Below are positions 34,401-64,000 of a stretch of DNA of 64,000 bases, one piece after another. A program made the translations under genes and the position numbers. The DNA lies in assembly GCA_046563655.1 (NCBI GenBank), contig CM102285.1, positions 3,286,001 through 3,350,000 of the forward strand, in the 5' to 3' direction. The notes under the pieces were generated by a model that did not search any database, was not told the DNA's origin, and saw only the letters and a list, made by a program, of their open reading frames with translations. This DNA is from Yuukianura sp. NJ FZ-2021. Its lineage: Eukaryota. Position 1 is the first letter of the stretch. Every line of letters starts with the position of its first letter.

Positions 34401-37400
34401 AATTGCATTTATTTCCCACTGACGACCAGTTTAAAGTGTTATTGACCAAGGTCAAGGTCAAAGACGTTGAGATAATGACCATAAAAATATGTTTCAACTC
34501 TTGACACCATGTGAACTAAGCGACTAATGCTTTATTGTGTATTTTCTAGAAGTTCCCATTCATCAATTAACATAATATTCTAGCGTAACTAATCTAAAAA
34601 ATCTTAACTCATTGACGTAATTACTACATATTTCCAGCTGAATCTGGGAATTCCAAGCGCAAATTTTTGCAATTGAAATTTCTTACAATTAGTTTTAGAC
34701 ATTAAGTTCTAAATTATCTTTTTTCTTAAAAGTGTAATTTTTAACGCGAAAATAAATTAATAAAAGCGAAATAATCTTAGGTTATTGCTTACGCCGCTCT
34801 TTCAACATCTTTTTTAGTTTTTTTTTCAAACTTCCCTTCACTTTTTTCGTTTTTAGGCTTTAGCACATACCACGTAAGGTATACCACTGAAGTATTCTGC
34901 GTCTTGGGAATTTGTTCAAGTGCGGCTGACCTATGACCTTTACCATAAACTCACAAGCTCCACTTTTTGTTGTCTAAACTTTTTTGTGTTTTATTTTCTT
35001 TTTCCACAGGAGCGACTCCTAAGTACTCTTCAGAATGAGGAGATTGACAAGATTCTACGAAGTTTCGGATGGACTTCGCCCGACTTGGCACGCGGATACA
35101 TGATCCAAGTAAGTTCTTAATTGTCTACTTTAGTCCTAACGATACACAATTCCACCTAACTTAGCAGCAAACTTATCAAACTTTACTCTACCTTTATCAA
35201 ACTTACCAAATATACTTACCAGACCAAAACTTTTGCCTAACCTAATTATATACTGCTACATATTTACATTTTTCGTCTTTCAGGTTTTAATTCGCCTCAA
35301 AATTGTTAAATTCCGATTAGCTTTAGTTTCATGTCAGAATTCTCCGCGTTTAGGTTAGTTTTTTTTTTTGGTTTGGTTAGGTATGCTTGTCGTTTCAGCG
35401 ATTTTTGTTGGAATGAGGTTAGAAGGAACTTGGAGTTGAAGAGTTCCCTGGTCGACGCGATAAAGAAAGTTTGAGTTAAGTTAGGCTAGGGCTGGAAGTT
35501 CCAGCACTCCGAACTGCCTGTCATCTTCTTCCTGACCGCTGACGATCCCATCAGCCCCAGCGAAAACTAAAGTTCTGGATGTTTTCCTTGAGGGAATTCC
35601 CTCGTCCCAGCGGACTTTAAGACACAAGAAACGGTTTTCGTGCAAGGGCAAGGGAATTGTGGTGTTGATGCTTCAGGACGCTCCCTTTTCGTCCTGGATC
35701 GATCGGCCACTTTCTTCTACACGCACAGCAGCCTCTTTTTCATTCTTATCCCACGGCCTGTCTTGTCCAACTTAGAGACAAAGTATCCCTCCAGGAAGAT
35801 CAGCCCAGGAACGGGATTCCGAGAAAGTAATATGCGAAGCAGGAACTCAACATAAGCAACATAACGCCTTTCTGAATTTTAAGTTTTGAAAAAAATCATT
35901 CTTGGCATCATCAATATTTTACCGCGGAGGAACCGTTAGCGTTCAAAACCATTCAAAACGGAGAACGATTTTTTTGAAACTTCAAATTTTTTTTGAAGTG
36001 CATGGTAGGGCGTTGTTCGACTTTTGTTGTGGGACATTGGCTTGGACACGGTGGACAATGGCCACCGCAGCGGCAGTTTTTGAATTTAAATTAGAGCAGT
36101 ACAAGCCATTGTCAAAATTTGTCACGACAAGCACGACTATCTTTTGTAAATTTTCTGTTAGGAAGAGACAGGCATTCTTGTTGCCTCAAAATAGCAGTTA
36201 GAATCAATCACTTTTGAGTAACTACGGACTGACATAAAAACACAAAGTGAAAAAATATAAAGTGAAAACAGCTTGTAAAAAAATTGACGTTGCTCATAAA
36301 ACATGAATTTTAACATTTTGAGTTGTTGAGACTTCCATGTTGAAAAATAAAAATGTGATCAAAATTTCATGTTTAATTTTTTTTTGTGATTCAAAATCTC
36401 CGTCACAATAAACATGACGAAGCACAGTTGGGGTTATACGGATTGATTCAAAATCGAAATCAGGATCACATTTACAGATGAACATGAAATTTTATAGACA
36501 TCGTATTGAAAAGCCGCGGGGCGGTTTTGTTTAAAAAATTTTTTCGAAGATCATCATCGATCCTGTGCCCAACTGCTTCCTTCTGGCACTTTTTGTTTAC
36601 ATGGTCGTACATTTTTAATTCTTTTGGGGTAATTATTGGCTTGAATGGCTGGTCGATGATGTATGTTGAGAGTTATGAGAAATAATGTATGTTGAAGGTT
36701 ATTAAAAGTTATGTTACAATGTAAGTTGCATTTGATGCATATGTTTTGTTTAGAACGGCAGAAGGGATGTTGCAGTGCTGGGAACGCGGGAGTTTCCAGT
36801 TTTTATTAATATTTATATTTACATTTCGATTTTTTAGGATCCTCGCGGCGGTCTTTTAGGACGGTGGTCAATGCTTCCGCGGGAAGAAGAAATTTTGATA
36901 CTGCAGCAGTTCCTAAGGTTCAATCCCACACGAAGTTTGAGTTTCACGCTTCTTCGAGACGACTTTCCGTCAATCCCGCAACCAATTCAACCCGCACCGC
37001 AGCATCAGGTCACTACAAGTCCACCATCAAGTCAACCCAATGATCAACGCTTCAACAACAAACCATTACCACCAATTCCACCGCCCCCTGGTAAGTTTTT
37101 CTAAACCAATTTTACCGAAATGACAATTCTACGACTCTTCTGCACAGAAAAGCTTCTCAAGCCAAACCTAATTTTTTTGACGCCTTAGGCTTCTTAAAAA
37201 TAATAATTACTCAAATGTTCAAAATTATTGAAGTAAATTTTGAAACTTGGCATCAATTTCTGCAGAACTTCGAGAGATGTAAAAAAAATTGAATGAATAC
37301 CTGTAATGTTAATTCACCTGAATTGATTAATTTGATTGTATGACAGATGAGCCGGCTCTGAATCTGTCCTCGGGTCATCAAAACCAGAAAAAGAGGCGGG

Positions 37401-39834
37401 GTCACAGGAAAGATGTTGAAATGAAAAATGAGCAGTCATCGTCTGAGGACGACGAGGACGGAGACACCATCCATCAGCCGCCCGTTGACCTCAGCTCCAA
37501 ACGCAGCTCCAAGTCAGATGACCCACCCCCACCCACCACCATGGCTCCCGCTGCTCCACCACCCAATCATAAGACTGACATGGTCAAGGGGGACGGTGGG
37601 CCAGGAGGACTTGGGACGCAGCATCACCGACATCACTGGAGCAACCACCACGGCGCAGGAGCCACGCAGCTTGTGAACCCCACGACAGGTACTGCCGCGG
37701 CCACTCTACTCCGCCGCTCCGTCTCAGCAATGACTCATCCCACAGAGTGCCCAAAAGCTGTACTCCCAGTGACGTCATGCATTGTTTTAGGTAAACGCCG
37801 AGTCCAGTGTTCCGTCTGTCTCAAGACGTTCTGTGACAAGGGAGCACTCAAAATCCACTTTAGCGCTGTTCATCTGCGGGAGATGCACAAATGCACCGTG
37901 GCGGGATGCAACATGATGTTTAGTTCACGGCGGTCAAGAAATAGACATTCCGCTAATCCAAATCCGAAGCTCCACTCACCTCATCTGCGCCGACGCATAA
38001 GTCCACATGATGGCCGAACGTGTCAACCTCTGTTGACGCTTAACTCTCCGTTACTTGGAGCTCTTCCGCCCGGAATGCTTCCAACATTCACAAATGGGGT
38101 CAAAGAAGAGGATCCAGAAATGAAGTAAGTTTTAGCGGATCGATTCCACCCTCCCTTACTTTTTTTTGGGTTACTCGTCCAATTTTTGTTCGTTTTCACC
38201 CTATTTCCTCCCCTCTTCGCCTGTCAAAACAAGGGTAACGCAAAACTTCGGATTCTGGAACAACCAAAAACAGATTTTTTTTTTTGTTGTAAACAAAACT
38301 CCCCTCCTTTTTTGACAAATTTGCAGTGTAATCAACTCAATTTTCTCGCAGAATGTTAGGTACAAGGTTCCAATAGCAACGAAATGGTTTTTTCCTTTAA
38401 CAGGTTTGGCAATAAGTCCTGTGTACGAAAAATCCTTCCCCGAACAATTTTTTCAGCCAATTTTCCCCCAATCCCATTTGATTACATATAAATCATTGAG
38501 ATAGGAAAGGTACGGTGAAGCAAGTTTTGCTAATTTTTTAACAAAATTTAAAAAGTTGTAGTTATTGCCTAACCTGTTGAAGACAAAACTATTTTCTTGT
38601 TTACGAACCTTGGTTAGGTAGTTGTTTCTAATTTTTTTTAAATAATTTTTTTTTGCAGTTTTTGCATGTAATATTTTTTCTAATCTCTACAGCAATCATG
38701 ACGACGATTCTGAAAGTTCGGTTTCGTTGTCTTCGACGTCAGAGAAGTCCGCTGGAGCACTTCCCGAAGAGAACCGAAAAGATGGCGCTCGGAAGCGCAA
38801 GTTGAGCAACCCCGTTCGGCTTCCGAGTGTCCGCGATGACTCAAATGACGACTTCTGTTGCTACGATGACGGAACCGAAGTCGGCGGAGTTGACAACGAC
38901 TCGCATGAAGACGATCGGAATCACTTGGAACGACTGGAGTCACTGCCGATTTTCAACACTTCGTCTCCGCAGTCAGATTCAGGCTCAAATGACGAAAGCT
39001 CTCCGAACTCTACCGACGGAGACTCTATTCCCATTGACAAAGAGAATCCAAGAAGATGTATTGCGTGTGGAAAGATGTTCCAGAACCACTTTGGAGTCAA
39101 AACTCACTACCAAAATGTCCACTTGAAGGTAAGCTATTGTACTCGTATTTCTCATGTTAGAAGTACAAACTGATTGAATTTAGTTGATGCACAAGTGTAC
39201 GGTGGATGGCTGTAATGCTGCGTTTCCGTCGAAGCGGTCACGAGATCGACACTCTGCTAACCTCAACTTACATCGGAAATTACTCAGCACAACTTCGGAT
39301 GTGAGCAACGAAAGCAGCGAGGACCCACCCCAACCCCAAATCAACCCCCGCCACCATTCAAACATTTTCAATCCATTTCTCGTCAATGGCACTTCACCCT
39401 CACCTCTCAATCATGTCACGGTAAGTGTACTTGTACCACCTTCTCTTCAGTTTCTGGTTTCTTAAACCAGCTTTTTATTTTGAAACCGAAATTATATTTT
39501 TCAAAAAATTTATGAAAAAACATTTTTGTTGCAATCTTAGAGTCCACCGTGGAATCCGTTTTTGCCGTTTCCCCTTTTCCCAGGCGTTTTTCACCAACCA
39601 CCGCCGCAGCATCCCGCTTCCGGAATGTCGCTTCACATGAGTGACTGTCGCTTTTGCGGCAAGAGCTTCGAAGCTGGTCCTGCCCTTCAGTCACACATGG
39701 AGTCAGTTCATGCTCAGGAAGCGATTCGCTGCAGACACTGCAGCGCCCTGTTCTTCTCACGCAAGAAACTGGACAACCACAACTGTGGAACCGGCGGAGA
39801 CCGTGGAACCAGTAGTAACACAAATGGTAACTAA
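7499..39834 (+). CDS. disco: Basonuclin/disconnected (disco)-family C2H2 zinc-finger transcription factor, 11 coding exons, ~791 aa
   Basis: Phase-consistent GT-AG exon chain: 7499-7628, 11651-11694, 23159-23261, 32537-32640, 35010-35108, 36838-37090, 37347-37688, 37791-38124, 38693-39128, 39184-39420, 39541-39834 (2376 nt = 792 codons). It contains the disco signature [66 protein letters not shown], a second pair [54 protein letters not shown], and the basonuclin N-terminal region. Exons 1-2 are the least certain. disco versus disco-r orthology is not resolved. Confidence 0.9.
15591..15713. repeat. Short imperfect direct duplication
   Basis: TTTGGAGGGAGTAACT(G/A)A..TATGTG.AATTT occurs twice about 79 bp apart. 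Confidence 0.7.
19049..19115 (-). other. tRNA-like (SINE head or tRNA pseudogene) sequence
   Basis: The minus strand has a B-box GGTTCGAGTCCC in a T-arm-like stem, and a degenerate A-box upstream. No good acceptor stem. Confidence 0.4.
23159..23261 (+). CDS. disco: disco/basonuclin exon 3: Cys/His-rich N-terminal motif
   Basis: ttacag|AAACTT...CACC|gtaagt translates [34 protein letters not shown], which resembles the vertebrate basonuclin ISCTLxNCxCxxFxPGKxxxRxCDQCKHGWVAH motif (recalled). Confidence 0.85.
26731..27344. mobile_element. MITE-like element with TGGACG-rich ends
   Basis: Perfect 13-bp inverted repeat TCATGGACGGATT (26731-26743) / AATCCGTCCATGA (27332-27344), with many internal TGGACG/CGTCCA motifs. 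Confidence 0.5.
26882..27093. mobile_element. Small MITE-like inverted-repeat element nested in the previous element
   Basis: AGGTTATGTCATAACTCCG (26882-26900) versus CGGAGTTTTGACATAACCT (27075-27093), 18/19 complementary. TAA lies close to both flanks. Confidence 0.5.
29959..30155. mobile_element. Degenerate MITE-like element with TGTTCAAA subterminal repeats
   Basis: Three TGTTCAAA units on the left and inverted TTTGAACA units on the right, with termini TCTTGTTCAAA / TTTGAACAAGA. Confidence 0.4.
31068..31310. repeat. Degenerate short-period repeat (TATGTGAC / GACATACAAC motifs)
   Basis: Repeated TATG(T/C)GAC and (G)ACAYACAAC motifs with apparent 7/14-bp periodicity. Confidence 0.45.
32537..32640 (+). 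CDS. disco: disco/basonuclin exon 4 (N-terminal conserved domain)
   Basis: tttcag|...|gtaagt; [34 protein letters not shown] resembles basonuclin FDISSLMLYGTQAxPVRLKILL. Confidence 0.88.
35010..35108 (+). CDS. disco: disco/basonuclin exon 5 (N-terminal conserved domain)
   Basis: ccacag|...|gtaagt; [33 protein letters not shown] resembles basonuclin DRLFSVLKQxEVLxILHxLxWTLxDYxRGYxLQ. Confidence 0.88.
37791..38124 (+). CDS. disco: disco exon 8: first zinc-finger pair
   Basis: Encodes [65 protein letters not shown]; flanked by ttttag and gtaagt. Confidence 0.95.
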
Positions 39835-41148: not shown

Positions 41149-42634
41149 TTAACGTCTAAACGTGAGTAGGAGGTCAGTGAGTCTGTCGACCATGAATTGA
41201 AAGAAGGATGCTAATGTTGCCCTGGAGATCGTTTCTGTTATGATGGAAACCTCCAAAGGTCGAAAAGTTCTTGCCAGTTTCTTGTAGTGTTGGCAGTTTG
41301 TTGAGTTGAACAGTCGCGGAAATTCCAATGAAGCGGCATGCAACTGTGCCGCGATTGTGCAAATGTTGTGCAACAAAAGGATGCTTAATGCTACTATTGA
41401 CATGGCGGCGAGAGTTAGCAAGTATCCGCAGTAGTCAAAACAGTAGATGGTGCAAAAAGTAACAACGGGAGTGAACGCCGTCAGAATATATATGAAGATA
41501 ACTGACCAGATTTGTAGGTCCGACGTAACTCGGTTCATGATTACTTGTAGAGCGCGGTACAGCAGTGCCATTCGCGGAGCCGAGAAGTGATTTCCTTCAT
41601 TGTGTGCTCTGTTTACCCAAAATACGTAAAATTAAATACAGTTATGTCACCCTCACCATTAGTTATGCGTCAATAGTAACTTAAGAATAGAATACTTACA
41701 ATAAATATCTTAACATCATCTGAACCTTAATAAACTGTATTAAGAAATTAAACCTAACTGTCCATTTTTGTTTAATTTAGTGCCCTTGTAATTGAGGTCA
41801 CAGCATTTGCAAGGGTTGTGTTACCTCTTACCTCGCTTGATCCAGAATGTTCGAGGACCATTTTGGTATTGTCAACAAATAGAAAGCTTGAGCCATGCAG
41901 TAGAGGTTAAAGATAACTGCAAAAGGCAGCGTGGCTATAAATAAGCCAACACCAACCGAAGCATAATACTCGCCAAAAATAACAACGATCATTTGATTGA
42001 ATGCGACGAATGTGGGAATATCGTTCTCAACTAGTAACAATGCAACCGCCATTGGGGAAATCACGACTCCTAATGTGCCAGCTATCAAATTTAGTTTCAC
42101 CAGTATTTCCAATCCGTCTCGTGTAGAAAGGTTCCACCCATACGTGTTTTCTAAAATATAAATTTTTGAAACACACATATATTTCTGTTTACATTCATTA
42201 TTGTACGATATTTTACCTAAAGACGTCATCAACTGAGAGATGTTTTCGAATAAGCAGTGGATCGTCTTTTGCTGCAGAAGAGCAAATACTTGTAGCGTGA
42301 CAAAGATGCTGACGAATGAGATAATCACAACGAGGAATGCTCTGTTGCGAATGCTGTCAGAAGTGACGTCTCCAAACACCAGCATGAACAGAATAACTGA
42401 ACAGTGGAACAGAATTAAGCATAACATTTCGTAAGTGGAGATCAATTGACGTATTCTACCTCCCGGGAAAATTTGCAACGCGTAAGCCGTGTCTCCTGTG
42501 ACCTTTTTACTACATGTGGTTCGTCTAGCAGCAGCTTGGTTGTTAGCTATTAGAAAAACCTTATCAGGTGAAACCCCAAGGTAGTAGCCAACCTTTAGCG
42601 CGTTATGGATCCAAGTTAGAGTTAACTTCGACAT
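41149..42634 (-). CDS. Divergent gustatory-receptor-like (7TM chemoreceptor) protein, 3 exons, ~398 aa
   Basis: Exons 42634-42217, 42150-41832 and 41608-41149 (1197 nt, phase-consistent GT-AG). The product has several hydrophobic helices and a C-terminal segment FRPLEVSI..ETISRATLASFFQFMVDRLTDLLLTF in the position and style of the TM7 region of arthropod GR/OR-superfamily proteins. The size is typical. Confidence 0.7.
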
Positions 42635-43393
42635 TACAAAAACACAATGTGAAACGTCAAATATAGTAGTTTTAAAAAACTAAACTTGTTAAGAAATTTG
42701 CCACGACAATTTTGGTAAAAAAATATTGTCTTAACTAGTTTAGGTAAGGTATGTCTGGGATTAAGATTAGCTTAATTAGCTTAAGTTTAATTAAGATTTC
42801 GTTTGTTTAAACACAACCGTATCAGGTTCCATCGAACAAACGCTTAAACCGAACCGCTCCTCTTAACTTAATATATATTAGCTTTCGATGGTAGCCGATA
42901 TCAACCTCACCTCAACGTCAAACTTCCAAATTTTCCAGCTTCGTTGTCATATATTATACATTTGGATTACCAAGGAGAATTGAATGTTTATGTCATGCTT
43001 TTACAGATATGTAAAGGAAAACAAAATCTAACAGCGAATTTCACTTCGGTTTTTTTTAGTATTCCAAGGAAAACACTTAATGTTCAAGACCCTATTAATA
43101 TTAAACAGCGTTTAAGTGCCAGTACTAGAATATGTCCGGCGAATTTGTTTTCGGAAAACAATGGCAGTAGTTGTTTTTTAATTTAATAGGTCAAGGTTGA
43201 TGGTTAGATGTAAAACTTTAATACTAAAAGTGTTGCCTAACCTTAACCTAAAATGTAGTAAATAATACAGTGAAAAATTTTCCGGTCGTGAAATCTTATA
43301 CCCTGGTAGAAATAAAATTCACTGAAGAACATTGTCTGCTATGCTTCGTATTTTACAATAAGTTCAATAAGTAGCCGATGACTCCAACATCTA

Positions 43394-54772: not shown

Positions 54773-55663
54773 ATGGCTCAGTTCAAGTACGCCGTTGTTC
54801 TGTTCACCGTTGACAATTCCACTTCAGTGGTACCGAAGTCCTGGATTAGTGATTGTGAAAACAATTGTCTTATCCCTCCTGACCTCACATCGAAAAGGAT
54901 TATCAAAGGGATCCCGCCTGCACCGGATTCAACCGCATATGACATCGTTGTTCTCAAAAAGTTTGGTAAGCTTAATAATTGCATGTCATCATTACTTATG
55001 TATTTTTTTAATATTGAGAATTATTGCACTTTTGTAGATGACTACAGTTGCACGACTGGACTTCAAGTACGACGAAGCAGTCGACATACCAAGTCTACCA
55101 GTTTTAACTAGTGACGAACTGCTTTTGCTCCTATCTTGGGTTACTGGACAAAGAGACAATCGCCAGAAACTGGTAATTTGTACAGTCAAATTATACTACT
55201 TTGTCTCACAAAGTGAACGATTGTTAACAAGTGACAACATTTGTTGAATTTTTGCAGGTGAATTTGCTCTCTCGTGTTGGAGGACAGACGTTTGGCCAAA
55301 CTATGTTCAGCACTTTGCAAAAACTCATGCACCACGACTTATCGTTTCAATACCGTCATACGAACCACAGTGGAAAGCTAGGATTTGGTGTATTGGAGCT
55401 ACGAGTGGTCGTCATTGGCAAGTGCTATGCTTACAAAGAATTTTTAATTTATAACTGTGATATAAGTTAAAATGAATATTAATTTTAATCGTTTTTTTTG
55501 TTCCTTAGATGCTGTTTTGAAAGCTCATCCAAATACTTCCGAACAGCTGATCAAAACAAAAATAGGAAGTTGGTTCCGTTGTACTCCTGATCGGATAGGG
55601 GGAAGGAAACATCGCATCCATCCAAGAATCTCTGCTACTGAACATGTCGTCCAGACATCTTAG
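54773..55663 (+). pseudogene. Transposon accessory gene (DUF4806-like), spliced, frame-disrupted
   Basis: Exons 54773-54965 (MAQFKYAVVLFTVDNSTSVVPKSWI...), 55038-55172, 55258-55417 (GC donor) and 55509-55663 (VNLLSRVGG...IGSWFRCTPDRIGGRKHR). The frame shifts early in exon 2, consistent with an internal deletion. Confidence 0.6.
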
Positions 55664-55980
55664 AAGAAAAATTCTTACAGCTGCACTTCAATCACTTCAC
55701 GACATTAATTCTCTACTTAACCAAAGTCCAGCACAATCAATACATGTTCCTGTGGTGAGAAGTTTAGAAATTAGTGATCAGGACAGTTACTCTAGCATTA
55801 TCGACGTAAATGTTCATAGCTCTGAACTTGACGATTTATCAGATTCCAGTAATGTTGTGGATTTAGTGTAGCCAAAAAATTCAGTTTTTGTGACCCTTTA
55901 GGAAACTGGGCAGTCACAAACAACATTTCACATAAAGCTCTTAGACAATTAATTTCAATCTTAAATACCGAGTTTAAATA
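55644..55980 (+). pseudogene. Truncated N-terminal fragment of an EnSpm-type transposase
   Basis: MSSRHLRRKI... followed, after a stop or frame change, by DPLGNWAVTNNISHKALRQLISILNTEF. This matches the W-A-x-x-x-N-I-S-H-x-A-L-x-x-L-L motif recalled for animal EnSpm-like transposases. No catalytic core is present. Confidence 0.55.
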
Positions 55981-56757
55981 GTTGTTAGTTTTTAACAGAA
56001 AATGAAATAAACTGATTGGTTCAAAAAGTGTATACTCTTTAACATGTTTTATTAGCACAGGCGCGTGATTTTGTGCTGGGGGAGTCGTTTTTGCCAGTAT
56101 AGGGAAGGTACTGGTTGTGTACAGGCGAATGCCGTCATGCTGGTAAATGTGCATAAGCCGGTATCGTTTTCTTACTGGCGACGTAATGGCAAACCGGTAT
56201 AACATTTTACCGGCATCATACCATTACCGAAACAGCACTGGGAGAGTACATGTTACGATGCCGAAAAAGCGGACATGCCCAACATTCTCCCATCATTAAG
56301 ATGCCGGGAGTAAGCCGGTAATGCGCCAGTACTGGGGTGTTTGTCGGGTTAACAACTCAAATTCGCCACTGCAAACACGAAGACCTGTATGACGTACATA
56401 GCAACAGAAAGTCCTAACTTTTTTTTAAAAAAAAAGGTCCACACGTCATCGGCCAAGGACAACTTATGGAAAAAAAAAATCAAAAACCGGACTTGCTTCG
56501 CGTTTAACTACCTGATGAACTACATCGTGAGCTTATTCATGCAAACTGCATCTTATTTAGAAGCCAAAGAGCATATAAGTATTGACATTTATTGGTTTTA
56601 TAGTATCATTCCACAAAGATAACCCGATTAACTTAAAGTTTCACTTTAGCTGTTATTATTATTACATTTCATAATCACAGCTGACACTCAACGGGTTAAC
56701 CAATTTGTTGCATCGTCTAAAATCGGGCAATTTAAACTATTTAAAAGCCGTACTGAA

Positions 56758-58928
56758 ATGGTTGCACTCCGACCAACTTTTTCGGATAAGTCTACGTCCA
56801 CAATATGCATCATCGGTGCTGGGTAAAATTTTCCCTGCAAAATTTTATTTCTGCCTACGTTGCAAGCGAAAATAAATTTTTTTTTAGATTCTCAGGCTTA
56901 ACGGCTGGAATTCAATTGAAGCGGCAACTCAAACTAAGTTCGTTTACTATTTATGATGAAAATCATGACATTGGTGGAACTTGGCTTGTGAATACTTATC
57001 CGTAAGCCAAAAACACTCTAGCTTGAAAAAAATTGCCTAGCCAGCTTCTTACTTTGTCAATGAAAGTGTAAAAATTTGTCACTAACTTTACAAGGGGGGC
57101 TTCATGCGACGTTCCGAGCATTTACTACAGTTTGTCATTCGAGTTGAATCCAGGTATAAAAGAAAACTGAAATTTTAGAAAAACAGAATGTTTATACATG
57201 TGTTTCATTTTGCTCAAATGTAGGTTGGCCTGAAGCGTATTCGTCGAGCGAAGCCATTTTGCAATACATGCAAAACCTTGTTGGAAAGTATGAGCTAAGC
57301 CCCCACATCAAGCTGAATGCGGAGGTCAAGGCCACTGTTTGGGCCGCAGATACAAAAACGTGGAATGTGACCCTACGACTAAGAGACTAAACAACAACAT
57401 ACTCAACAATTTGATATAGTGTAAGACCAGTTGACTTATTTGCATATCAAAATACAAAATAATTCATTAGTTAAAACATTATGCGCAGAATCACAGGCTC
57501 AGGCTTCCTACGGAACCCGCATGTCCCACAAGATTTCATGAATTTCAAGGGTCCTGTTTTTCATTCTGCTGAGTGGAACCACTCTGTTGAATTGGCGGAC
57601 AAGGTTGTTGGCATCATTGGATCTGGTTCAAGTGCCATCCAGATTATTCCAGCCATTGCCAAAAAAGTGAAGGAGTTGCATTGCTATCAAAGGAAACCTG
57701 GACATGTCTTAGAAAGGACGCAGAAAACTTACTCGAAGGCATGGAAGTTGGCTTGCAAATATTTTCCGGTAATTTTAATAAGTTTACGGATTCAACTACA
57801 ACACTATTATTATTTACCACAAAATCAAAGTTCATTTAAAAACATTGAGAAATAGCATGTCTTTTATATTTTTAGCCTTTGATGTGGATAATACGGCTTT
57901 ATATTTTTATAATATGTGAAGTGTTCCACCTTTCATTTTTTCCGGGAGGAAAAGTAAATAAATTCGGTACTCCTGATTTTTGTATATTTCTGTATTTTAT
58001 AAAATCCAGAGTTGAAGGTTGGATTATTTTTAACAACATTTTTATTTAACCCTTATTAGTTACTGAAATGTGCAAAAAGCATTTGGAAAAACAAGTTGAA
58101 GATGAAGCATTGCGGCAGAAAGCGAGTCCAGGATTCGTTTACGGCTGTAAACGGCTTCTGCTCCACAACGACTATTATCCAGCTCTCCAACTTCCAAATG
58201 TGAAACTTCATCGCGGAAAAGTACAAAAAGTTTCTGGAGAAATAGTTGAATGTGAGGATGGAAGTAGCTCAAAACTTGATGTGCGTGTATCAGGATTTTG
58301 CATTTCCAAAAAAAAGTAATTTTTTTAAGTTGGTAAAAAATAATTTCCAGGTTCTAATTTTGGCAACTGGATTCAAAACTAATCACTACATGGACCCTCT
58401 AAAAATTGTTGGCAAGGAAGGAATTAATGTCAATGAGCACTGGAAAGAAAACGTGCCATCTTCCTACCTCGGCATCATCACGCACTCAGCGCCGAATCAG
58501 TTCTTTCTTCTTGGACCGAACACCGTAAGAAAAGGGAATCTACAAGTTAATTGTGTTTCGAAATTTTATGACATTTTTCAAAATCTAAAATTATATAATT
58601 TTTTGAATTTTAGCTTTTGGGCCACAGCAGTGTCTTGTACATAATGGAATGTCAGGTCAACTACATTGTTGATGGAATCCGACAGATGATGCTGAAGAAC
58701 ATAAAAGTAGTTGAGCCCAAGAAAGCCATTGAGGAGAAGTACATGGATGAAATACAGCGTGAACTGAAGAAGATGGTGTGGGCCACTGGAAAATGCGAAG
58801 CATGGTACAGCGATGCTCGTGGAAATGTCACTGCTCTCTGGCCGTACAACTGTCTCACGTACTGGAAAAGAACGCGCAAGTTCCGCATGGGAGATTACGA
58901 AACGTATGCTTGGGATGAAGCGCCTTAG
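56758..58928 (+). pseudogene. Baeyer-Villiger monooxygenase / class B flavin monooxygenase copy 1, probable pseudogene
   Basis: Exons 56758-56822, 56888-57001, 57095-57153, 57224-57420, 57489-57768, 57876-57966, 58060-58280, 58351-58524, 58614-58928. Motifs: IIGAGFSG, GGTWxx[43 protein letters not shown]. Exon 4 is 197 nt versus 199 nt in copy 2, giving a stop at 57388-57390. The restored frame also contains TAA at 57380-57382. Confidence 0.8.
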
Positions 58929-59049
58929 CACCGAATGTTAATATTTTGTTTTGGAAGATGATAACATTTAAAAAATTAAAAATTTTAAAAGAACAGTGTG
59001 TGTGTGTGTATAAGCCCAATACGGTTTAATTCTTGAAGCAAACTACACT

Positions 59050-59562
59050 TTATTAAGTATCGTCAGATACTTTTAGGGATCGTAATGTCCGTCTGTCCGT
59101 CTGTCTGTCTGTCCGTCTGTACGTATACTAGCCACAATATCTCTGGAACCGCTGGACCGATTTTCAATCTGTCTTCACAGATGAACTTGACATGGTCCAG
59201 GGGTGAACAAGTTGTTTCCGGTTTTACCGGAAGTAGCCAACTTCCGGGTCAAAGGTCAAGGTCAAGTACATTTTCGACGGAATTTGGAAAAATGGCCTCC
59301 ACAAAAGTTGTTCATTTCAATGAAAGAACAACTTTGCTGTAGGTGACCTTGACCTTTGGCATACGGTTCTGGAGATATAGACGCTGCAAGTTGCTAAATG
59401 GTGTCGCTCATACTACGCGCGTCTATAACTTTGGAACCCCTGAACCGATTTTCAACCTGTCTTCGCAGATGACCTTCACATGGTACAGGGGTGACTAATC
59501 GGCTTCTGGTTTGATCGGAAGTGGCCAAATTCCGGGTCAAAGGTCAAGGTCAAGTACATTTT
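59050..59562 (+). mobile_element. Helentron-associated (HINE/DINE-1-like) non-autonomous element, copy A (interrupted or truncated)
   Basis: Begins after a T-run with the palindromic AAGTATC-GTCA-GATACTT, then a (GTCY)n microsatellite at ~59087-59120. An internal ~290-bp-period direct repeat follows (59145-59273 versus 59433-59562). Confidence 0.7.
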
Positions 59563-59825
59563 TAAGTATCGTCAGATACTTATAGGGATCGTCTTGTCCG
59601 TCCGTTCCTCCGTCCGTCTGTAATGCTTTTAACTCGGCAACCACTGCACTGATTTCTAAGCAGCTTTTTTAATGAGTACTAAATACAAACCAGATGACTA
59701 AAAATCAGTTTTTGGATTCACCTTAAGTGACCTCTATTGGTGTCATAGGTCAAGGTTATGCTCTATTTGCATTATGGAAACGGATGGGCAGACTCGGAAG
59801 GGATATGCGGGGATCGGATTTTGAT

Positions 59826-60477
59826 TAGGGGTCGCAAATTCGAATTTGAATTCGATTCGAAATTCGAATATTCGTCTTTTCTCAGCGAATTCGAAATTCG
59901 AAATTGGGAGGGACAAAATTCGAATTTATTGTCTAAATGGGTCAAAATTAGACTAAAACATTTTGTGGCGGGAGATGTGGTGTAGAAAGCAAAATTCAAA
60001 CATTTCCGCCTTTGTTTTGTGATTCAATTTTCGATTCAGTCAACCTTTCAACCTTCCTCGCTACCCTAGTCACTGCCAACCAAATTCTCAATTCCCAAAA
60101 ATACAATTTTAAAATATGAGCGACTGCTACAGGAATGTTACCGATACCTGAAAGCAATTCTGTCAGCGAGTGTGGAATCGGAGCGAATTTTTCCGTCATC
60201 TGGGTACTTGTGTAACAAGCTTGGCTCTCGAGTCGGTGACAAAGTTTTATTTTCACCATAACGAAAATTAGTTTGAATACCGTTGTTGTTTAAGGATATC
60301 AGTCTCTAAAGAACGTTTCAAAAGTAAATAACATGTTTTCAATGTGTTAAATACTCGTCTGAATTCTAATTACTTTTGTTTCTTTAAATCCGAAGAAATT
60401 CGAATTTGGAGTTTGGAAATTCGAATACCAAATTCGAAATTCGAATTTCAAAAACAGATTCGAATTTGCGACCCCTA
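59826..60477 (+). mobile_element. Non-autonomous hAT transposon (652 bp, internal-deletion derivative)
   Basis: 20-bp TIRs TAGGGGTCGCAAATTCGAAT / ATTCGAATTTGCGACCCCTA and an 8-bp TSD ATTTTGAT (59818-59825 and 60478-60485). Subterminal TTCGAA arrays. Residual hAT C-terminal dimerisation coding at 60121-60249 (YRYLKAILSASVESERIFPSSGYLCNKLGSRVGDKS). Confidence 0.9.
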
Positions 60478-60586
60478 ATTTTGATGACCTTGAGTGACCT
60501 CTAACAAGGTCAAGGTCATCTTTTTTTTTACCTCAATTCAAAAATTCGGGGATGGATGTTTGACGATGCGAGGATTAAAATTAATT

Positions 60587-60633
60587 ATATTAATTAATAT
60601 TAATATATATATAATATTAATATTAATTAATAT
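60587..60633. repeat. AT-only palindrome (20-bp perfect arms)
   Basis: ATATTAATTAATATTAATAT-atatata-ATATTAATATTAATTAATAT. Confidence 0.9.
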
Positions 60634-62065
60634 GCTGCTTGCTAATAACTAATATAATGCCGAATGCTGTTTGACCTCAAATAACCTCTAACAATATCAG
60701 AGGTCTAGGTCAACAATATCCGGCGCGGGAATTCTCTATAATTGATCTGACGATACTTATTTACATCGTCTTTGCAAGAAGTTTATTGTTTGCAGTGAGT
60801 ATTGCGAACGCCTATTTCTCCTACGTCAGAAGCTTTCGCATGGTAGTGTAGTGCTATTTTTTCGAATCATTCATTCAAATAATTTCAAAATTGAACCTTC
60901 CAATATTTTTACGTAACCAAAAATTATAAAACTGTCAACAGATTTGTATAGTATCTTAATCGTTAAGATCACGATGTTACTATGCAAGATGGAAATAAAT
61001 CATATTAGACCTTGTAACTAAGATATTGACAAAAGTTTAGTTTCCAAAAATTGTCAAAACACTAATCAATATTTTTTGAATGTAAGCTTACAGCGTTCAG
61101 GATGTTCAAATTGTATTTCAAGTGAAACAAAACCTCTGAGCACACAATTGTTTACTACCGTCAAATTTTAATTAATCCTCAAGTTTATTGTAACACAGAC
61201 TGTCTACCTAAAACCCATTTGTGTTATTTGTGGTAGCAAAGGTTTTTTTTAAATCCACATATAATTTAGCATTGATTTTGTGTTTTTTTTTTGTACGGAA
61301 TCAACTTGCTGCAACGATTCCCATGTTTTGGTATCTCACTTAAATTTGCATGTGTTGGACATTTTCACAACCAAGTTCTGACATTCCAACAAAAAAGGAT
61401 TTTTTTTAGCGAAACGCTTCATCCTTCACCCCATACTAACTAAAGTTGCAATATTTTGTTTCATAAGTTAACATGTTTTGTCTCTTGTTTATTCTGGATT
61501 TTAGAACCTTTATGTTTGTAGAACTTTTTTTTATTGTCTCACGCCACTATAATCTTATGTAACAAAAATTTTTAAACTAGAATTTCAAGTTATCTTACTT
61601 TAAGAAATCAAATTTGCCAAATAAGCACACAGACCTGTAACAGTAACACGTACATAGCAACAGAAATTTATAATTTCTTAAAAAGAAGGCTCAAGTGCTC
61701 GGCCAAGGTCAACTTATGAAAAAAAATCAACAACCGAACCATCTTTACATGCTTCGCGTGTGATACTACCAAATTGACTACATCGTGAGCTTATTTATTC
61801 AAACTGCATCTTATTTAGAGGCCAAAAAGCATACAAATAGTGGCATTTATTAGTTTCATAGTATCATTCTACAAACAAAGATAACCCGACTCACTTAAAG
61901 TTACACTGTAGACGTTACTACCATTGCATAATCACAGCTGACACTCAATGTGTTAACCTATTTGTTGCATCACCTAAAATCATCAAAGTTTATACCAAAG
62001 TCTTTAAACACTTCTCCACTTCTCGATAAAACACTACGGTAAAGGAAGTATTTAAAAGTCTCAAA

Positions 62066-64000
62066 ATGGGTGGATTTGGACCAACATTTCCGGATGGCTC
62101 AACGCCCAAAATATGCATCATCGGTGCTGGGTAAAATATTTCCTTCAAAATTTTATTTTTCACTATTTTCCATGAGGAACAAAATTTTAATTTGCAGATT
62201 CTCAGGCCTAACCGCTGGAATTCAATTGAAACGGCAACTCAAATTAAGTTCGTTTACAATTTACGATGAAAATCATGACATTGGCGGAACATGGCTTGTG
62301 AATACTTATCCGTAAGCCTAAAAAACACTCTCGTTAGGAAAACAAAAAAGCTTGGAAAGCTCTTATTTAGTGAAATGTGTTTGAAAATTTGTCACTTTAC
62401 TAGAGGAGTTGCATGCGATATTCCAAGTATTTTATACAGCTTGTCATTCGAGTTGAACCCAGGTATAAAAAAATGAAACTAAAATTTTGGAAAACGGATT
62501 GCCAATATTTGAGTTTCAAAATTATGCTTAAATACAGACTGGCCTGAAGCGTATTCGTCGAGCGAAGCCATTTTGAAGTACATGCGAAAACTTGTCGGAA
62601 AGTATGACCTGAACCCCCACATCAAGCTCAATACGGAGGTCAGGGCCACTGTGTGGGACGAAGATGCAAAGAAGTGGAGTGTGGCGCTGTATAACAAGGA
62701 GAATCAACAACAACATACTCAGCAATTTGATATTGTGTAAGACTAGTTGACCTTGCATGTCAAAAATACAAGATATCTCAAGACTTCACAAAAATATTTT
62801 CAGAATCACTGGCTTAGGCCTCCTGCGGAGTCCAAATGTCCCACAAAATTTCAAAAACTTCAAGGGTCCTGTTTTTCATTCTGCAGAGTGGGACCACTCT
62901 GTTGACCTCACAGACAAGGTTGTTGGCATCATCGGATCTGGTTCAACTGCTATTCAGATTATTCCAGCCATTGCCAAAAAAGTGAAGGAGTTGCATTGCT
63001 ATCAAAGGAAACCTGGACATGTCGCAGAGAGGCCACAGAAAACTTATTCCCAAGCATGGAAGTTGGCATGCAAATATTTTCCGGTAATTTTAAATATCCT
63101 ATTTACAGATTTAATTACAAAAGTTATTATTACCCACAAAAATAAAAAATCAGATAAATACATTGTCGTTTATGTTTTTAGCCTTTGATGTGGATAATGC
63201 GGCTTCTAATTTTTATTAAATTTGAACTGTTCCACTTTTCGTTTTTTCCGGGAGGAAAAGTGAACAAACTCGGTACGTATAGATTTTTGTGTAACTTTGT
63301 TAAATTTCCAGTTAAAGGATTTTAAATTATTATTAACAAGAACAGTTTTTACTTTACAACTTGTTAGTTACTGAAACGTGCAAAAATCATTTGGAAAAGC
63401 AAGTTGAAGATGAAGCATTGCGGCAGAAAGCGGCTCCAGGATTTGTTTACGGCTGCAAAAGACTTTTGTTCCACAACGACTATTACCCGGCTCTCCAACT
63501 TCCAAATGTCAGACTTCACCGCGGAAAAATTCAACAAATTTTTGGAGAAATAGTTGAATGTGAGGATGGAAGTAGCACAAAACTGGATGTGCGTGGATCA
63601 GGATTTCGAATTTCCATTGGAAAAATTAATCTTTTAAGTTGATAAATGTAATTTTAGGTTCTAATTTTGGCAACTGGATTCAAAAGTAATCACTACATGG
63701 ATCCTCTAAAAATTGTTGGTAAGGGAGGAATCAATGTCAATGAGCACTGGAAAGAAAACGTGCCATCTTCCTACCTCGGCATCATCACGCACTCTGCGCC
63801 GAATCAGTTCTTTCTTCTTGGACCGAACACCGTAAGAAAGGGAATCTACAAGTTAATTGTGTTTCGAAATTTACTCAAGAATATGATATTTTTCAAAATC
63901 TAAAATTATATAATTTTTTGAATTTTAGCTATTGGGCCACAGCAGCGTCTTGTACATAATGGAGTGTCAAGTGAACTACATTGTTGATGGAATCCGACAG
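62066..64000 (+). CDS. Baeyer-Villiger monooxygenase / class B flavin monooxygenase copy 2 (3' end beyond window)
   Basis: Exons 62066-62130, 62198-62311, 62404-62462, 62538-62736, 62804-63083, 63182-63272, 63368-63588, 63658-63831, 63929->64000, open throughout. Two GxGxx(G/A) Rossmann motifs flank the type I BVMO fingerprint [12 protein letters not shown]. Confidence 0.9.

What the first reader, a model, noticed from the sequence alone, without database searches (positions are those of the whole stretch)
56758..64000. Intron-rich, tandemly duplicated Baeyer-Villiger monooxygenases of bacterial type in an animal genome: candidate domesticated horizontal transfer
Seen: two paralogs with 8 short spliceosomal introns at identical positions, the type I BVMO fingerprint FxGxxxHxxxW(D) between two Rossmann motifs, and the motifs [30 protein letters not shown] and WY.DARGNVTALWP. 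Known: canonical animal FMOs carry FxGxxxHxxxY/F, while type I BVMOs are mainly bacterial and fungal and patchy in animals. From memory these motifs resemble the Pseudomonas PA1538 / Mycobacterium Rv3049c-like group. Inference: an old horizontal acquisition that gained introns and expanded, giving a ketone-to-ester oxidation or detoxification capacity. Its position next to an animal disco gene argues against contamination.
Basis: partly seen in the sequence, partly recalled or inferred. Interest (0 to 1): 0.8.

Follow-up and report, generated by a model that had tools for sequence, protein, structure and literature searches.

The report
Tandem Baeyer-Villiger monooxygenase genes in an arthropod
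Two neighbouring, intron-bearing genes for a ketone-to-ester oxidising flavoenzyme sit in an arthropod genome and belong to a small gene family otherwise seen only in springtails and dark-winged fungus gnats, with early fungi and amoebae, not bacteria, as nearest outside relatives.

Summary
Two tandem + strand paralogs (ATGs at 56758 and 62066) each have 9 exons and 8 GT-AG introns at identical positions. Both carry both type I BVMO fingerprints, two Rossmann motifs and the catalytic Arg/Asp. New details: copy 1 has a 2-nt frameshift in exon 4 with a premature TAA. Copy 2 is open for 425 codons until the window ends. Exon 8/intron 8 is a recent gene-conversion tract. dN/dS between the copies is 0.22.

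The genes are not "bacterial type". Their nearest relatives are unnamed mRNA-like environmental contigs (55-59% identity). Next come annotated proteins of Sciaridae (Bradysia, Pseudolycoriella) and Collembola (Orchesella, Folsomia) at 42-49%. These form one arthropod clade (100/99 support). That clade is sister to Mucoromycota/Mortierellomycota fungi and Amoebozoa. An AU test rejects union with the sampled bacteria (p 0.0015).

The patchy range matches the published "alien" P450 and terpene-synthase genes shared by fungus gnats, springtails and mites. I favour an old transfer from a eukaryotic microbe followed by spread among soil arthropods. Ancient inheritance with massive loss is not excluded. 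Host taxon, expression and substrate remain unknown.

The parts
56758..58928 (+). BVMO copy 1, ATG to TAG: 9 exons (56758-56822, 56888-57001, 57095-57153, 57224-57420, 57489-57768, 57876-57966, 58060-58280, 58351-58524, 58614-58928) and 8 GT-AG introns of 65-107 nt
   Evidence: homology to P0001 and P0166 by tblastn
57373..57390 (+). Copy 1 lesion: 2 nt missing relative to copy 2 in exon 4, inside a variable loop, then an in-frame stop TAA at 57388-57390. The conserved peptide ...[10 protein letters not shown] continues in the shifted frame
62066..64000 (+). BVMO copy 2: exons 62066-62130, 62198-62311, 62404-62462, 62538-62736, 62804-63083, 63182-63272, 63368-63588, 63658-63831, 63929-64000. 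Open for 425 codons; the last exon is cut by the window end
56392..56724 (+). Upstream flank (putative promoter / 5' UTR) duplicated with the gene; 80% identical to 61648-61981
58351..58685 (+). Recent gene-conversion tract with 63658-64000. Exon 8 is 97% and intron 8 99% identical, against 65-78% for the other seven introns
57540..57575 (+). Short BVMO fingerprint [12 protein letters not shown] in copy 1 ([12 protein letters not shown] in copy 2, exon 5), followed by the NADPH Rossmann motif GSGSSA / GSGSTA
58062..58280 (+). Exon 7 with GCKR. Its Arg aligns with the PAMO chain residue numbered 337 in the printed alignment, which I recall to be the catalytic arginine
   Evidence: isolated exon, weak E 0.52; the same stretch is aligned in the profile match
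37331..39173 (+). Neighbour: disco/basonuclin-like C2H2 zinc-finger gene (ORFs 37331-38128 and 38646-39173), the animal context
   Evidence: 1474 proteins with E<=0.001; zinc-finger part 60-94% identical to arthropod basonuclin-2/disco proteins

Best explanation
These are two tandem copies of a nuclear arthropod gene for a soluble, roughly 490-residue class B flavoprotein of the type I Baeyer-Villiger monooxygenase kind. The expected mechanism is established for solved BVMOs and inferred here. NADPH reduces bound FAD, O2 gives a flavin-peroxide anion that NADP+ and the conserved Arg stabilise, and this attacks a carbonyl carbon to form a Criegee intermediate. That intermediate rearranges a ketone to an ester or lactone, or an aldehyde to a formate. 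Copy 2 looks functional as far as the window shows. Copy 1, as assembled, is a recently disabled or mis-assembled paralog.

The genes belong to an arthropod-restricted clade that is patchily distributed: Collembola, Sciaridae, unnamed mRNA-like environmental contigs and this host. Its nearest outside relatives are early-diverging fungi and Amoebozoa.

My preferred history, which is inference, has three steps. An old transfer from a fungus-like or amoeba-like eukaryote entered a soil microarthropod. The gene then gained introns and duplicated. It later moved between soil arthropod lineages, as proposed in print for 'alien' P450 and terpene-synthase genes of fungus gnats.

The likely role is specialised metabolism of small lipophilic carbonyl compounds. 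That could be detoxification of fungal or dietary ketones, or synthesis of ester/formate semiochemicals.

Sub-odds: real type I BVMO gene in an arthropod genome 0.95; member of the arthropod clade 0.95; some horizontal step in its history 0.65; arthropod-to-arthropod step 0.4.
For: Purifying selection acts between the copies: dN 0.072, dS 0.327, dN/dS 0.22 over 423 codons. The BVMO family assignment rests on a profile of 17 clade members, which hits solved type I BVMOs (9orn 5.6e-84, PAMO 1w4x 1e-75, CHMO, STMO, OTEMO) far above FMOs (best 4.7e-27). The Arg of GCKR aligns with PAMO residue 337.

Relatives were found as follows. In 1.84 billion representatives, exon 9 finds 1872 proteins at E<=1e-3, none above 52% identity. 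The best full-length matches are P0166 (55-59%), P0168 (51-55%), B. odoriphaga P0161 (45-49%) and Collembola (45-48%). Acytostelium reaches 40-45% and Mortierellomycota 39-44%. Bacteria reach 37-42%.

Among the 120 best relatives of Bradysia P0007, drawn from a 5.8-billion-protein collection that includes NCBI nr, 16 rows carry animal names. All 16 are from 3 sciarid and 3 collembolan species.

In the careful tree (59 rows, LG+C20 PMSF) the arthropod clade has 100/99 support. The window copies plus P0166 have 100/98. The clade joins fungi plus Planoprotostelium at 92/89, with bacteria on the other side at 98/90. The AU test rejects arthropods plus core bacteria, p 0.00146.

For linkage and composition.

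Against: The arthropod clade is sister to the fungal/amoebozoan sequences, not nested inside them. The deep order (Acytostelium, then fungi and arthropods) is also what plain vertical descent in Amorphea predicts. The fungal group itself is weakly supported (49/92). So no donor is identified and the direction of any transfer is open.

The host taxon could not be resolved. The disco zinc fingers score alike against all arthropod groups. Conflict with the species tree therefore cannot be scored.

No expression data exist for this locus. Copy 1 is broken as assembled, and copy 2 lacks its last ~80 codons in the window.

The AU group was chosen after the tree had been seen. Only 16 of 80 fetched bacterial loci plus 6 other putatively bacterial rows were in that tree.

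The substrate and physiological role are pure inference.
Confidence: 0.55

Rival explanations
1. Ancient vertical inheritance. An opisthokont/amorphean BVMO paralog was passed down to arthropods and lost independently in almost every animal lineage. It survives only in Collembola, Sciaridae, this host and a few others.
For: The deep topology of the careful tree mirrors the species tree: Amoebozoa outside, fungi and arthropods as sisters, no nesting in a donor. Identities to fungi are low (39-45%), and there are eight introns. Mascotti et al. 2015 argue for exactly this model for the Hydra, Oikopleura and Adineta BVMOs (PMC4498894, passages). The 2023 FMO phylogeny also stresses duplication and loss (PMC10682829, passages).
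Against: It needs very many independent losses. Of the 120 best relatives in a collection holding NCBI nr, the only named animals are 3 sciarid and 3 collembolan species. Sciaridae sit deep inside Diptera, whose other annotated families do not appear. Planoprotostelium falls among fungi, so the deep tree does not follow the species tree cleanly. Sciaridae have documented arthropod-derived alien genes with the same range.
Confidence: 0.27
2. Independent transfers from related microbes. Each arthropod lineage (springtails, fungus gnats, this host) acquired the gene separately from closely related unsampled fungi or protists, with no arthropod-to-arthropod step.
For: All these animals live in soil or litter and eat fungi (recalled, and stated in the PMC11665903 discussion). 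That paper lists this as an alternative for the terpene synthases.
Against: The arthropod sequences form one clade with 100/99 support on a 0.28 stem. No microbial sequence falls inside it among 59 rows or 85 rows. The unnamed members that were inspected look like AT-rich arthropod mRNAs (L081).
Confidence: 0.1
3. One reading: direct, old transfer from a bacterium of the PA1538 / Rv3049c-like group.
For: Bacterial homologues of the same ~500-residue length class are abundant: 599 of 600 pattern matches in species genomes encode relatives, including Pseudomonas and Mycobacterium. The family is mainly microbial.
Against: Bacteria are the most distant of the three groups (37-42% identity). There is a 98/90 split between the bacterial and eukaryotic rows. 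AU rejects arthropods plus core bacteria (p 0.00146).
Confidence: 0.05
4. Contaminant or assembly artefact: fungal or other foreign DNA joined to an arthropod contig.
For: HGT claims in arthropod assemblies have often proved to be contamination (titles). No independent read evidence could be obtained here.
Against: The two copies lie between host-like AT-rich sequence on one contig with a disco-like gene and a gustatory-receptor-like ORF. G+C is even across the window. Orthologous clade members are annotated on chromosome-scale scaffolds of other arthropods, with longest contigs up to 155 Mb. Four DNA runs of one sample hold 27-69% of the sampled words, though they may be the assembly's own data.
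Confidence: 0.03

Closest known systems
Sciarid 'FAD-binding monooxygenase ktnD-like' / 'Baeyer-Villiger monooxygenase' proteins (Bradysia coprophila, B. odoriphaga, Pseudolycoriella hygida; automatic NCBI names)
   Same: They share the arthropod clade (100/99), the ~495-residue length, both BVMO fingerprints, and multiple paralogs per genome (6 rows for B. coprophila).
   Different: Identity is only 42-49%. The window copies fall in a separate sub-clade with unnamed environmental transcripts (100/99), beside the Sciaridae sub-clades (87/95). The intron positions of the sciarid genes could not be compared.
Collembolan 'Baeyer-Villiger monooxygenase' proteins (Orchesella cincta, O. dallaii, Folsomia candida)
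   Same: Same clade, 45-48% identity and the same motifs.
   Different: They form the other branch of the arthropod clade (91/74). No function or origin for them was found in print.
Putative flavin-binding monooxygenases of Mortierellomycota/Mucoromycota and Amoebozoa (e.g. Podila P0180, Acytostelium P0172, Planoprotostelium P0009)
   Same: They are the nearest non-animal relatives at 39-45% identity over the full length, with the same length class and motifs.
   Different: They are outside the arthropod clade. None is characterised as far as the names show.
Solved type I BVMOs: phenylacetone monooxygenase (1w4x), cyclohexanone monooxygenases (3gwd, 4rg3), steroid monooxygenase (4aos), OTEMO (3uov), Acinetobacter 'putative flavin-binding monooxygenase' (6a37, 9orn)
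   Same: Two-Rossmann class B architecture, both fingerprints and the catalytic Arg and Asp. Profile E-values are 1e-70 to 5.6e-84.
   Different: The arthropod/fungal family is about 40 residues shorter. Profile positions 217-265 face chain residues 216-294 of 9orn, i.e. a shorter insertion after the NADPH motif. Identity is low, and the substrate cannot be transferred.
'Alien' P450 and canonical terpene-synthase genes of Sciaridae (PMC11665903; PMC12051294, citing Feyereisen et al. 2023)
   Same: The same odd taxon set (fungus gnats, springtails, soil mites), tandem expansion, and a role in small-molecule metabolism. This is a resemblance of evolutionary pattern, not of protein family.
   Different: They are different enzyme families. 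For the BVMOs no mite member was identified here, and no paper found reports them.
Published metazoan BVMOs (Hydra vulgaris, Oikopleura dioica, Adineta vaga; PMC4498894)
   Same: They are type I BVMOs in animals with a disputed origin (HGT versus loss).
   Different: None of these species appears among the 120 best relatives of the clade. They probably belong to other BVMO sub-families, but this was not tested directly.

Membership tests
Type I Baeyer-Villiger monooxygenase (class B flavoprotein monooxygenase, subgroup B1) | Two Rossmann dinucleotide motifs GxGxxG/A (FAD, then NADPH) | tested here: met
   GAGFSG in both copies; GSGSSA (copy 1) and GSGSTA (copy 2)
Type I Baeyer-Villiger monooxygenase (class B flavoprotein monooxygenase, subgroup B1) | Short fingerprint FxGxxxHxxxW(P/D) between the Rossmann motifs (motif as quoted in PMC10682829) | tested here: met
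   Copy 2 has [12 protein letters not shown], fully met. Copy 1 has [12 protein letters not shown], where W is kept and the last position is N instead of P/D
Type I Baeyer-Villiger monooxygenase (class B flavoprotein monooxygenase, subgroup B1) | Long fingerprint GGxWxxxx(F/Y)P(G/M)xxxD (motif as quoted in PMC10682829) | tested here: met
   [15 protein letters not shown] (copy 2) and [15 protein letters not shown] (copy 1)
Type I Baeyer-Villiger monooxygenase (class B flavoprotein monooxygenase, subgroup B1) | Active-site arginine (PAMO R337; the role is recalled) in the G-x-K-R stretch | tested here: met
   The exon 7 GCKR aligns with GTKR of 1w4x, the R falling on chain residue 337 (weak E for the lone exon). 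R301 is invariant in alignments A1 and A2
Type I Baeyer-Villiger monooxygenase (class B flavoprotein monooxygenase, subgroup B1) | Closer to solved BVMOs than to FMOs or NMOs by profile | tested here: met
   The A2 profile (17 clade relatives, without the window proteins) gives BVMOs 5.6e-84 to 1.9e-53 and FMOs 4.7e-27 or worse. The window copies are 55-59% identical to the first profile member
Type I Baeyer-Villiger monooxygenase (class B flavoprotein monooxygenase, subgroup B1) | NADPH- and O2-dependent conversion of a ketone or aldehyde to an ester, lactone or formate | not testable with these tools
   Needs recombinant enzyme
Canonical animal FMO (Pfam FMO-like, FxGxxxHxxx(Y/F) linker) | Y or F at the last position of the linker motif, and absence of the BVMO fingerprints | tested here: not met
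   W at that position and both BVMO fingerprints present. Pfam FMO-like matches only as the general class B model: 30 bits on exon 5 and 69 bits on P0166
Horizontally acquired gene in an animal | Gene tree nests the animal sequences inside a donor clade | tested here: not met
   The arthropod clade is sister to fungi plus Planoprotostelium (92/89), not nested in them. Bacteria are rejected
Horizontally acquired gene in an animal | Patchy presence among recipients' relatives | tested here: met
   All 16 of 16 animal-named rows among the 120 best relatives come from Sciaridae or Collembola. This is limited to what that collection holds, and the host itself is unnamed
Horizontally acquired gene in an animal | Physical linkage to undoubted host genes and host-like gene features | tested here: met
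   Same contig as a disco/basonuclin-like gene and a gustatory-receptor-like ORF; 16/16 GT-AG introns; even composition
   The reference sequences were not fetched. Pseudomonas and Mycobacterium homologues of the same length class exist at about 36% identity (L072, L013). NCBIfam gives no equivalog; the best match is PtlE at 183 bits against a cut-off of 1100

The most novel reading that the evidence does not exclude
The BVMO is a third class of 'alien' small-molecule-metabolism genes, after P450s and terpene synthases, that circulates by arthropod-to-arthropod transfer among soil microarthropods (springtails, mites, fungus gnats and this host) following one ancient capture from a fungus-like eukaryote. 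Members of this clade would be the so far unidentified enzymes behind biological Baeyer-Villiger steps in microarthropod secretions. One example is the aldehyde-to-formate chain shortening reported for astigmatid mites, which the oribatid genome preprint (10.1101/2020.12.10.420141, one passage) attributes to 'a novel, uncharacterized enzyme'.
Probability: 0.15. Interest if true: 0.8.

Novelty: new member of a known kind. Interest (0 to 1): 0.5.

Why it matters
Type I BVMOs are textbook microbial enzymes. The surveys I could read list only Hydra, Oikopleura and Adineta among animals (PMC4498894). They describe BVMOs as restricted in eukaryotes, and the passages I read name no arthropod (PMC10682829).

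This locus shows a well-formed, intron-bearing, duplicated BVMO gene in an arthropod chromosome. It ties that gene to a coherent arthropod clade found in springtails and fungus gnats.

That clade has the same peculiar range as the genes used to argue for gene transfer between arthropods. It therefore offers an independent marker to test that idea, for example through shared intron positions.

It also gives concrete candidates for ester-, lactone- or formate-forming steps in the chemical ecology of soil arthropods. The individual gene is not a new kind of enzyme.

Tried and rejected
Read support and expression. The look-up of sequencing runs listed no RNA holder (5 DNA rows, 2 studies, names coded). 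So neither the splice junctions nor the copy 1 frameshift could be checked against reads.

Own genome: none is held, so genome-wide copy number is unknown.

Names came from the search for homologous proteins instead.

Host identification failed. The disco-like ORF matches only through its zinc fingers, with similar scores for insects, crustaceans, myriapods and chelicerates. No Pfam family was found for the six neighbouring ORFs tried.

ESM Atlas on exon 9 gave only unnamed short clusters of mixed taxa. PDB search with exon 9 alone gave nothing meaningful.

The metagenome scan returned only one clade member, L081, which is identical to P0164.

Earlier findings of this scan: three look-ups, all empty.

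First exon 6 model (donor at 57915) was rejected, because copy 2 has no GT there and homologues align through the longer exon. Rescue of copy 1 by an internal donor in exon 4 was considered and rejected on phase (my reading coordinates).

Literature. Searches found no paper describing arthropod type I BVMO genes. This covers only the open library.

Structure prediction and complex prediction were not run. The spliced protein cannot be handed to those tools, and sequence matches to solved BVMOs were already decisive.

Full report
WHAT IS THERE

The stop-to-stop ORF list of 55000-64000 and the sequence itself show two sets of short + strand coding blocks. A global alignment of 56700-59000 with 61980-64000 (blastn: 83.5% over 1999 columns) puts them in register. 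Splice borders were placed from the sequence and checked by script.

Each copy has 9 exons and 8 introns. All 16 introns begin with GT and end with AG. They are 65-107 nt long, sit at the same codon positions and phases in both copies, and are 25% G+C against 43% for the exons. Coordinates are listed under 'parts'.

Copy 2 reads open for 425 codons from ATG 62066 to the window end.

Copy 1 lacks 2 nt relative to copy 2 in a variable loop of exon 4. It therefore runs into TAA at 57388-57390. Behind the shift the conserved frame continues without a further stop to TAG at 58926-58928.

My first model of exon 6 used the nearest GT. Copy 2 has no GT there. Both copies keep an open, conserved peptide up to a G|GTAC donor, and the fungal homologue P0001 and the clade members align through it. 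The longer exon is therefore adopted.

Only these two copies are in the window (tblastn with P0166). The duplicated block also includes about 330 nt upstream of the ATG (56392-56724 against 61648-61981, 80%).

THE TWO COPIES COMPARED

- Over 423 shared codons, dN = 0.072 and dS = 0.327, so dN/dS = 0.22. The four segments give similar values of 0.06-0.26. Both copies were therefore under purifying selection for most of their separate history.
- Seven introns are 65-78% identical. Intron 8 is 99% and exon 8 is 97% identical. This marks a recent gene-conversion tract.
- Polarising the amino-acid differences with three outgroups assigns 25 changes to copy 1, 10 to copy 2, and leaves 27 unassigned (binomial p 0.017).
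- In the careful tree the copy 1 tip is four times longer, 0.138 against 0.035.
- Copy 1 also has N where the short fingerprint expects P or D.

Together with the frameshift, this suggests copy 1 is relaxing or already dead.

WHAT KIND OF PROTEIN

Both copies carry the following features:
- the FAD Rossmann motif GAGFSG;
- the long BVMO fingerprint [13 protein letters not shown];
- the short fingerprint [11 protein letters not shown](D/N);
- the NADPH Rossmann motif GSGS(T/S)A;
- ATGF;
- GCKR.

The motif definitions are taken from PMC10682829 (passages).

A profile of 17 clade relatives hits solved type I BVMOs at 5.6e-84 (9orn), 1e-75 (PAMO 1w4x), about 1e-73 (cyclohexanone and steroid monooxygenases) and 2.6e-70 (OTEMO). 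The best FMO reaches only 4.7e-27.

Exon 7 on its own aligns its GCKR with GTKR of PAMO, with the arginine on chain residue 337. That this residue is the catalytic arginine is my recollection.

Pfam sees only the general class B models. NCBIfam has no equivalog; the best is the BVMO PtlE at 183 bits against a cut-off of 1100.

Compared with the solved enzymes, the family is about 40 residues shorter after the NADPH motif.

The mechanism I propose is the standard BVMO cycle, transferred by homology and not shown here. No signal peptide or membrane segment is evident in the N-terminus by eye; this was not tested.

WHO ARE THE RELATIVES

- Exon 9 searched for longer proteins through the word index found one protein, a Mucoromycota one at 47%.
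- Exon 9 against 1.84 billion representatives gave 1872 proteins at E<=1e-3, 291 at <=1e-10, none at <=1e-30, and no identity above 52%.
- The best full-length hit, P0007, proved to be 'FAD-binding monooxygenase ktnD-like [Bradysia coprophila]'.
- Of its 120 best relatives (6442 with E<=0.001 among 8000 scored), 16 carry animal names: 6 Bradysia coprophila, 3 B. odoriphaga, 2 Pseudolycoriella hygida, 3 Orchesella cincta, 1 O. dallaii and 1 Folsomia candida.
- The remaining rows are Amoebozoa, many Mortierellomycota and Mucoromycota, one Kickxellomycotina, Actinomycetota and unnamed metagenome proteins.

Identities to the spliced window proteins (copy 1 read with X at the shift, copy 2 partial):

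| Relative | Identity |
|---|---|
| Unnamed P0166 | 55-59% |
| Unnamed P0168 | 51-55% |
| B. odoriphaga P0161 | 45-49% |
| Collembola | 43-48% |
| P0007 (B. coprophila) | 42-44% |
| Acytostelium | 40-45% |
| Mortierellomycota | about 39-44% |
| Best bacteria among 160 fetched loci | 37-42% |

The unnamed close relatives sit on 1.5-1.8 kb contigs. The one I read (L081, identical to P0164) has an uninterrupted ORF, AT-rich flanks and an AATAAA near its end, so it looks like an mRNA. P0160 is sister to a Bradysia protein on short branches. So at least some of these unnamed rows are arthropod transcripts.

TREES

A quick LG+G4 tree of 85 rows and a careful LG+C20 PMSF tree of 59 rows with ultrafast bootstrap and SH-aLRT agree.

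In the careful tree:
- All arthropod-named rows, the window copies and the close unnamed rows form one clade (100/99).
- Inside it, Collembola are one branch (91/74).
- The other branch holds P0008, a window sub-clade (window copies + P0166 100/98; + P0168 100/96; + P0164 100/99) and a Sciaridae-plus-unnamed sub-clade (87/95).
- The arthropod clade joins fungi plus Planoprotostelium (92/89), then Acytostelium (98/90).
- All bacterial rows and the distant unnamed rows lie on the other side.

Holding the arthropod clade together with the 16 core bacterial rows costs 58.6 log-likelihood units and is rejected (AU p 0.00146).

Caveats:
- I named that group after seeing the tree.
- The 59-row set used 14 of the 80 fetched species-genome loci.
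- The root is not inferred.
- Nine rows have deviant composition.

ORIGIN

Two histories remain.

Vertical descent from an amorphean ancestor fits the deep order of the tree. It is the model that Mascotti et al. preferred for the Hydra, Oikopleura and Adineta BVMOs (PMC4498894, passages). But it needs loss in nearly all animals, including all other annotated Diptera.

A horizontal history fits the narrow range, which is ecologically coherent: soil, litter and fungus feeders. It has direct precedent. Canonical terpene synthases occur in Sciaridae, Collembola and Acariformes only, and the sciarid ones group with oribatid mites (PMC11665903, passages). Twenty-eight 'alien' P450 genes of Bradysia coprophila are attributed to springtails (17), mites (10) and fungi (1), and their loci were validated on chromosome-scale scaffolds (PMC12051294, passages, citing Feyereisen et al. 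2023, which I did not read).

I put about 0.65 on some horizontal step and 0.27 on pure vertical descent. The donor and the direction are not shown.

The host could not be placed. Its disco-like gene matches arthropod basonuclin-2/disco proteins only through the zinc fingers, with near-equal scores across insects, crustaceans, myriapods and chelicerates. No Bradysia, springtail or mite protein stands out.

IS IT CONTAMINATION

No. The pair lies 18 kb downstream of the disco-like gene, and near a multi-pass membrane ORF whose nearest Atlas clusters are arthropod, some with 7tm_7 or Trehalose_recp on a minority of members (a lead only). The pair has host-like composition and spliceosomal introns.

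FUNCTION

Nothing here identifies a substrate. The automatic name 'ktnD-like' points to a fungal secondary-metabolism monooxygenase and is no evidence. I commit to a Baeyer-Villiger or related oxygenation of small lipophilic carbonyl compounds in specialised metabolism.

One concrete lead comes from the oribatid mite genome preprint (10.1101/2020.12.10.420141, one passage). [quoted passage not shown] 2017, not read). Whether mites carry this clade was not established.

NOVELTY

The enzyme class is well known, and homologues in six arthropod species already carry BVMO-type names in public records. This locus is therefore a new member of a known kind.

What seems unreported in the open literature I could search is the existence and shape of an arthropod type I BVMO clade with the 'alien gene' range.

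Noticed in passing
window 37331-39173 (+): A disco/basonuclin-like C2H2 zinc-finger gene (two long ORFs). Only the finger regions match other proteins, at up to 92-94% to insects and crustaceans over about 30% of the query. The flanks have no close relative in the 5.8-billion-protein collection, so the host has no near kin there.
   Followed up: partly
window 41149-42679 (-): Two long ORFs rich in hydrophobic stretches and with no Pfam hit. The Atlas feature search puts the larger one next to arthropod-only clusters (0.95). Clusters at 0.90 carry 7tm_7 (23% of members) or Trehalose_recp (10%). It is probably a gustatory-receptor-like gene.
   Followed up: partly
window 58351-58685 and 63658-64000: Exon 8, intron 8 and the start of exon 9 are 97-99% identical between the two copies, while the other introns are 65-78% identical. 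This marks a recent gene-conversion tract inside an older duplication (dS 0.33 overall, 0.19 in the last segment).
   Followed up: yes
window 59047-59621 and 59824-60479: The 3.1 kb spacer between the copies holds short dispersed repeats. These are a 149-nt direct repeat (59126-59274 / 59414-59562, 83%), a 66-nt one ending in a TGTCCGTC microsatellite, and a 32-nt inverted repeat pair 592 nt apart (59824-59855 / 60448-60479), which looks like a small MITE.
   Followed up: no
window 57112-57120 and 62421-62429 (exon 3, motif CD(V/I)PS-I): A histidine that is invariant in all 17 arthropod-clade relatives (H68 of P0166, ...CDVPSHLYS...) is isoleucine in both window copies. The GLGHNS stretch reads LLGHSS. 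The significance is unknown. Both changes predate the duplication.
   Followed up: no
L081 (metagenome contig, 1772 nt): This is an mRNA-like contig: 5' leader, uninterrupted 493+ codon ORF, and an AT-rich trailer with AATAAA. It encodes a clade member identical to P0164 and 47-50% identical to the window proteins. It shows that clade members are transcribed in nature.
   Followed up: partly
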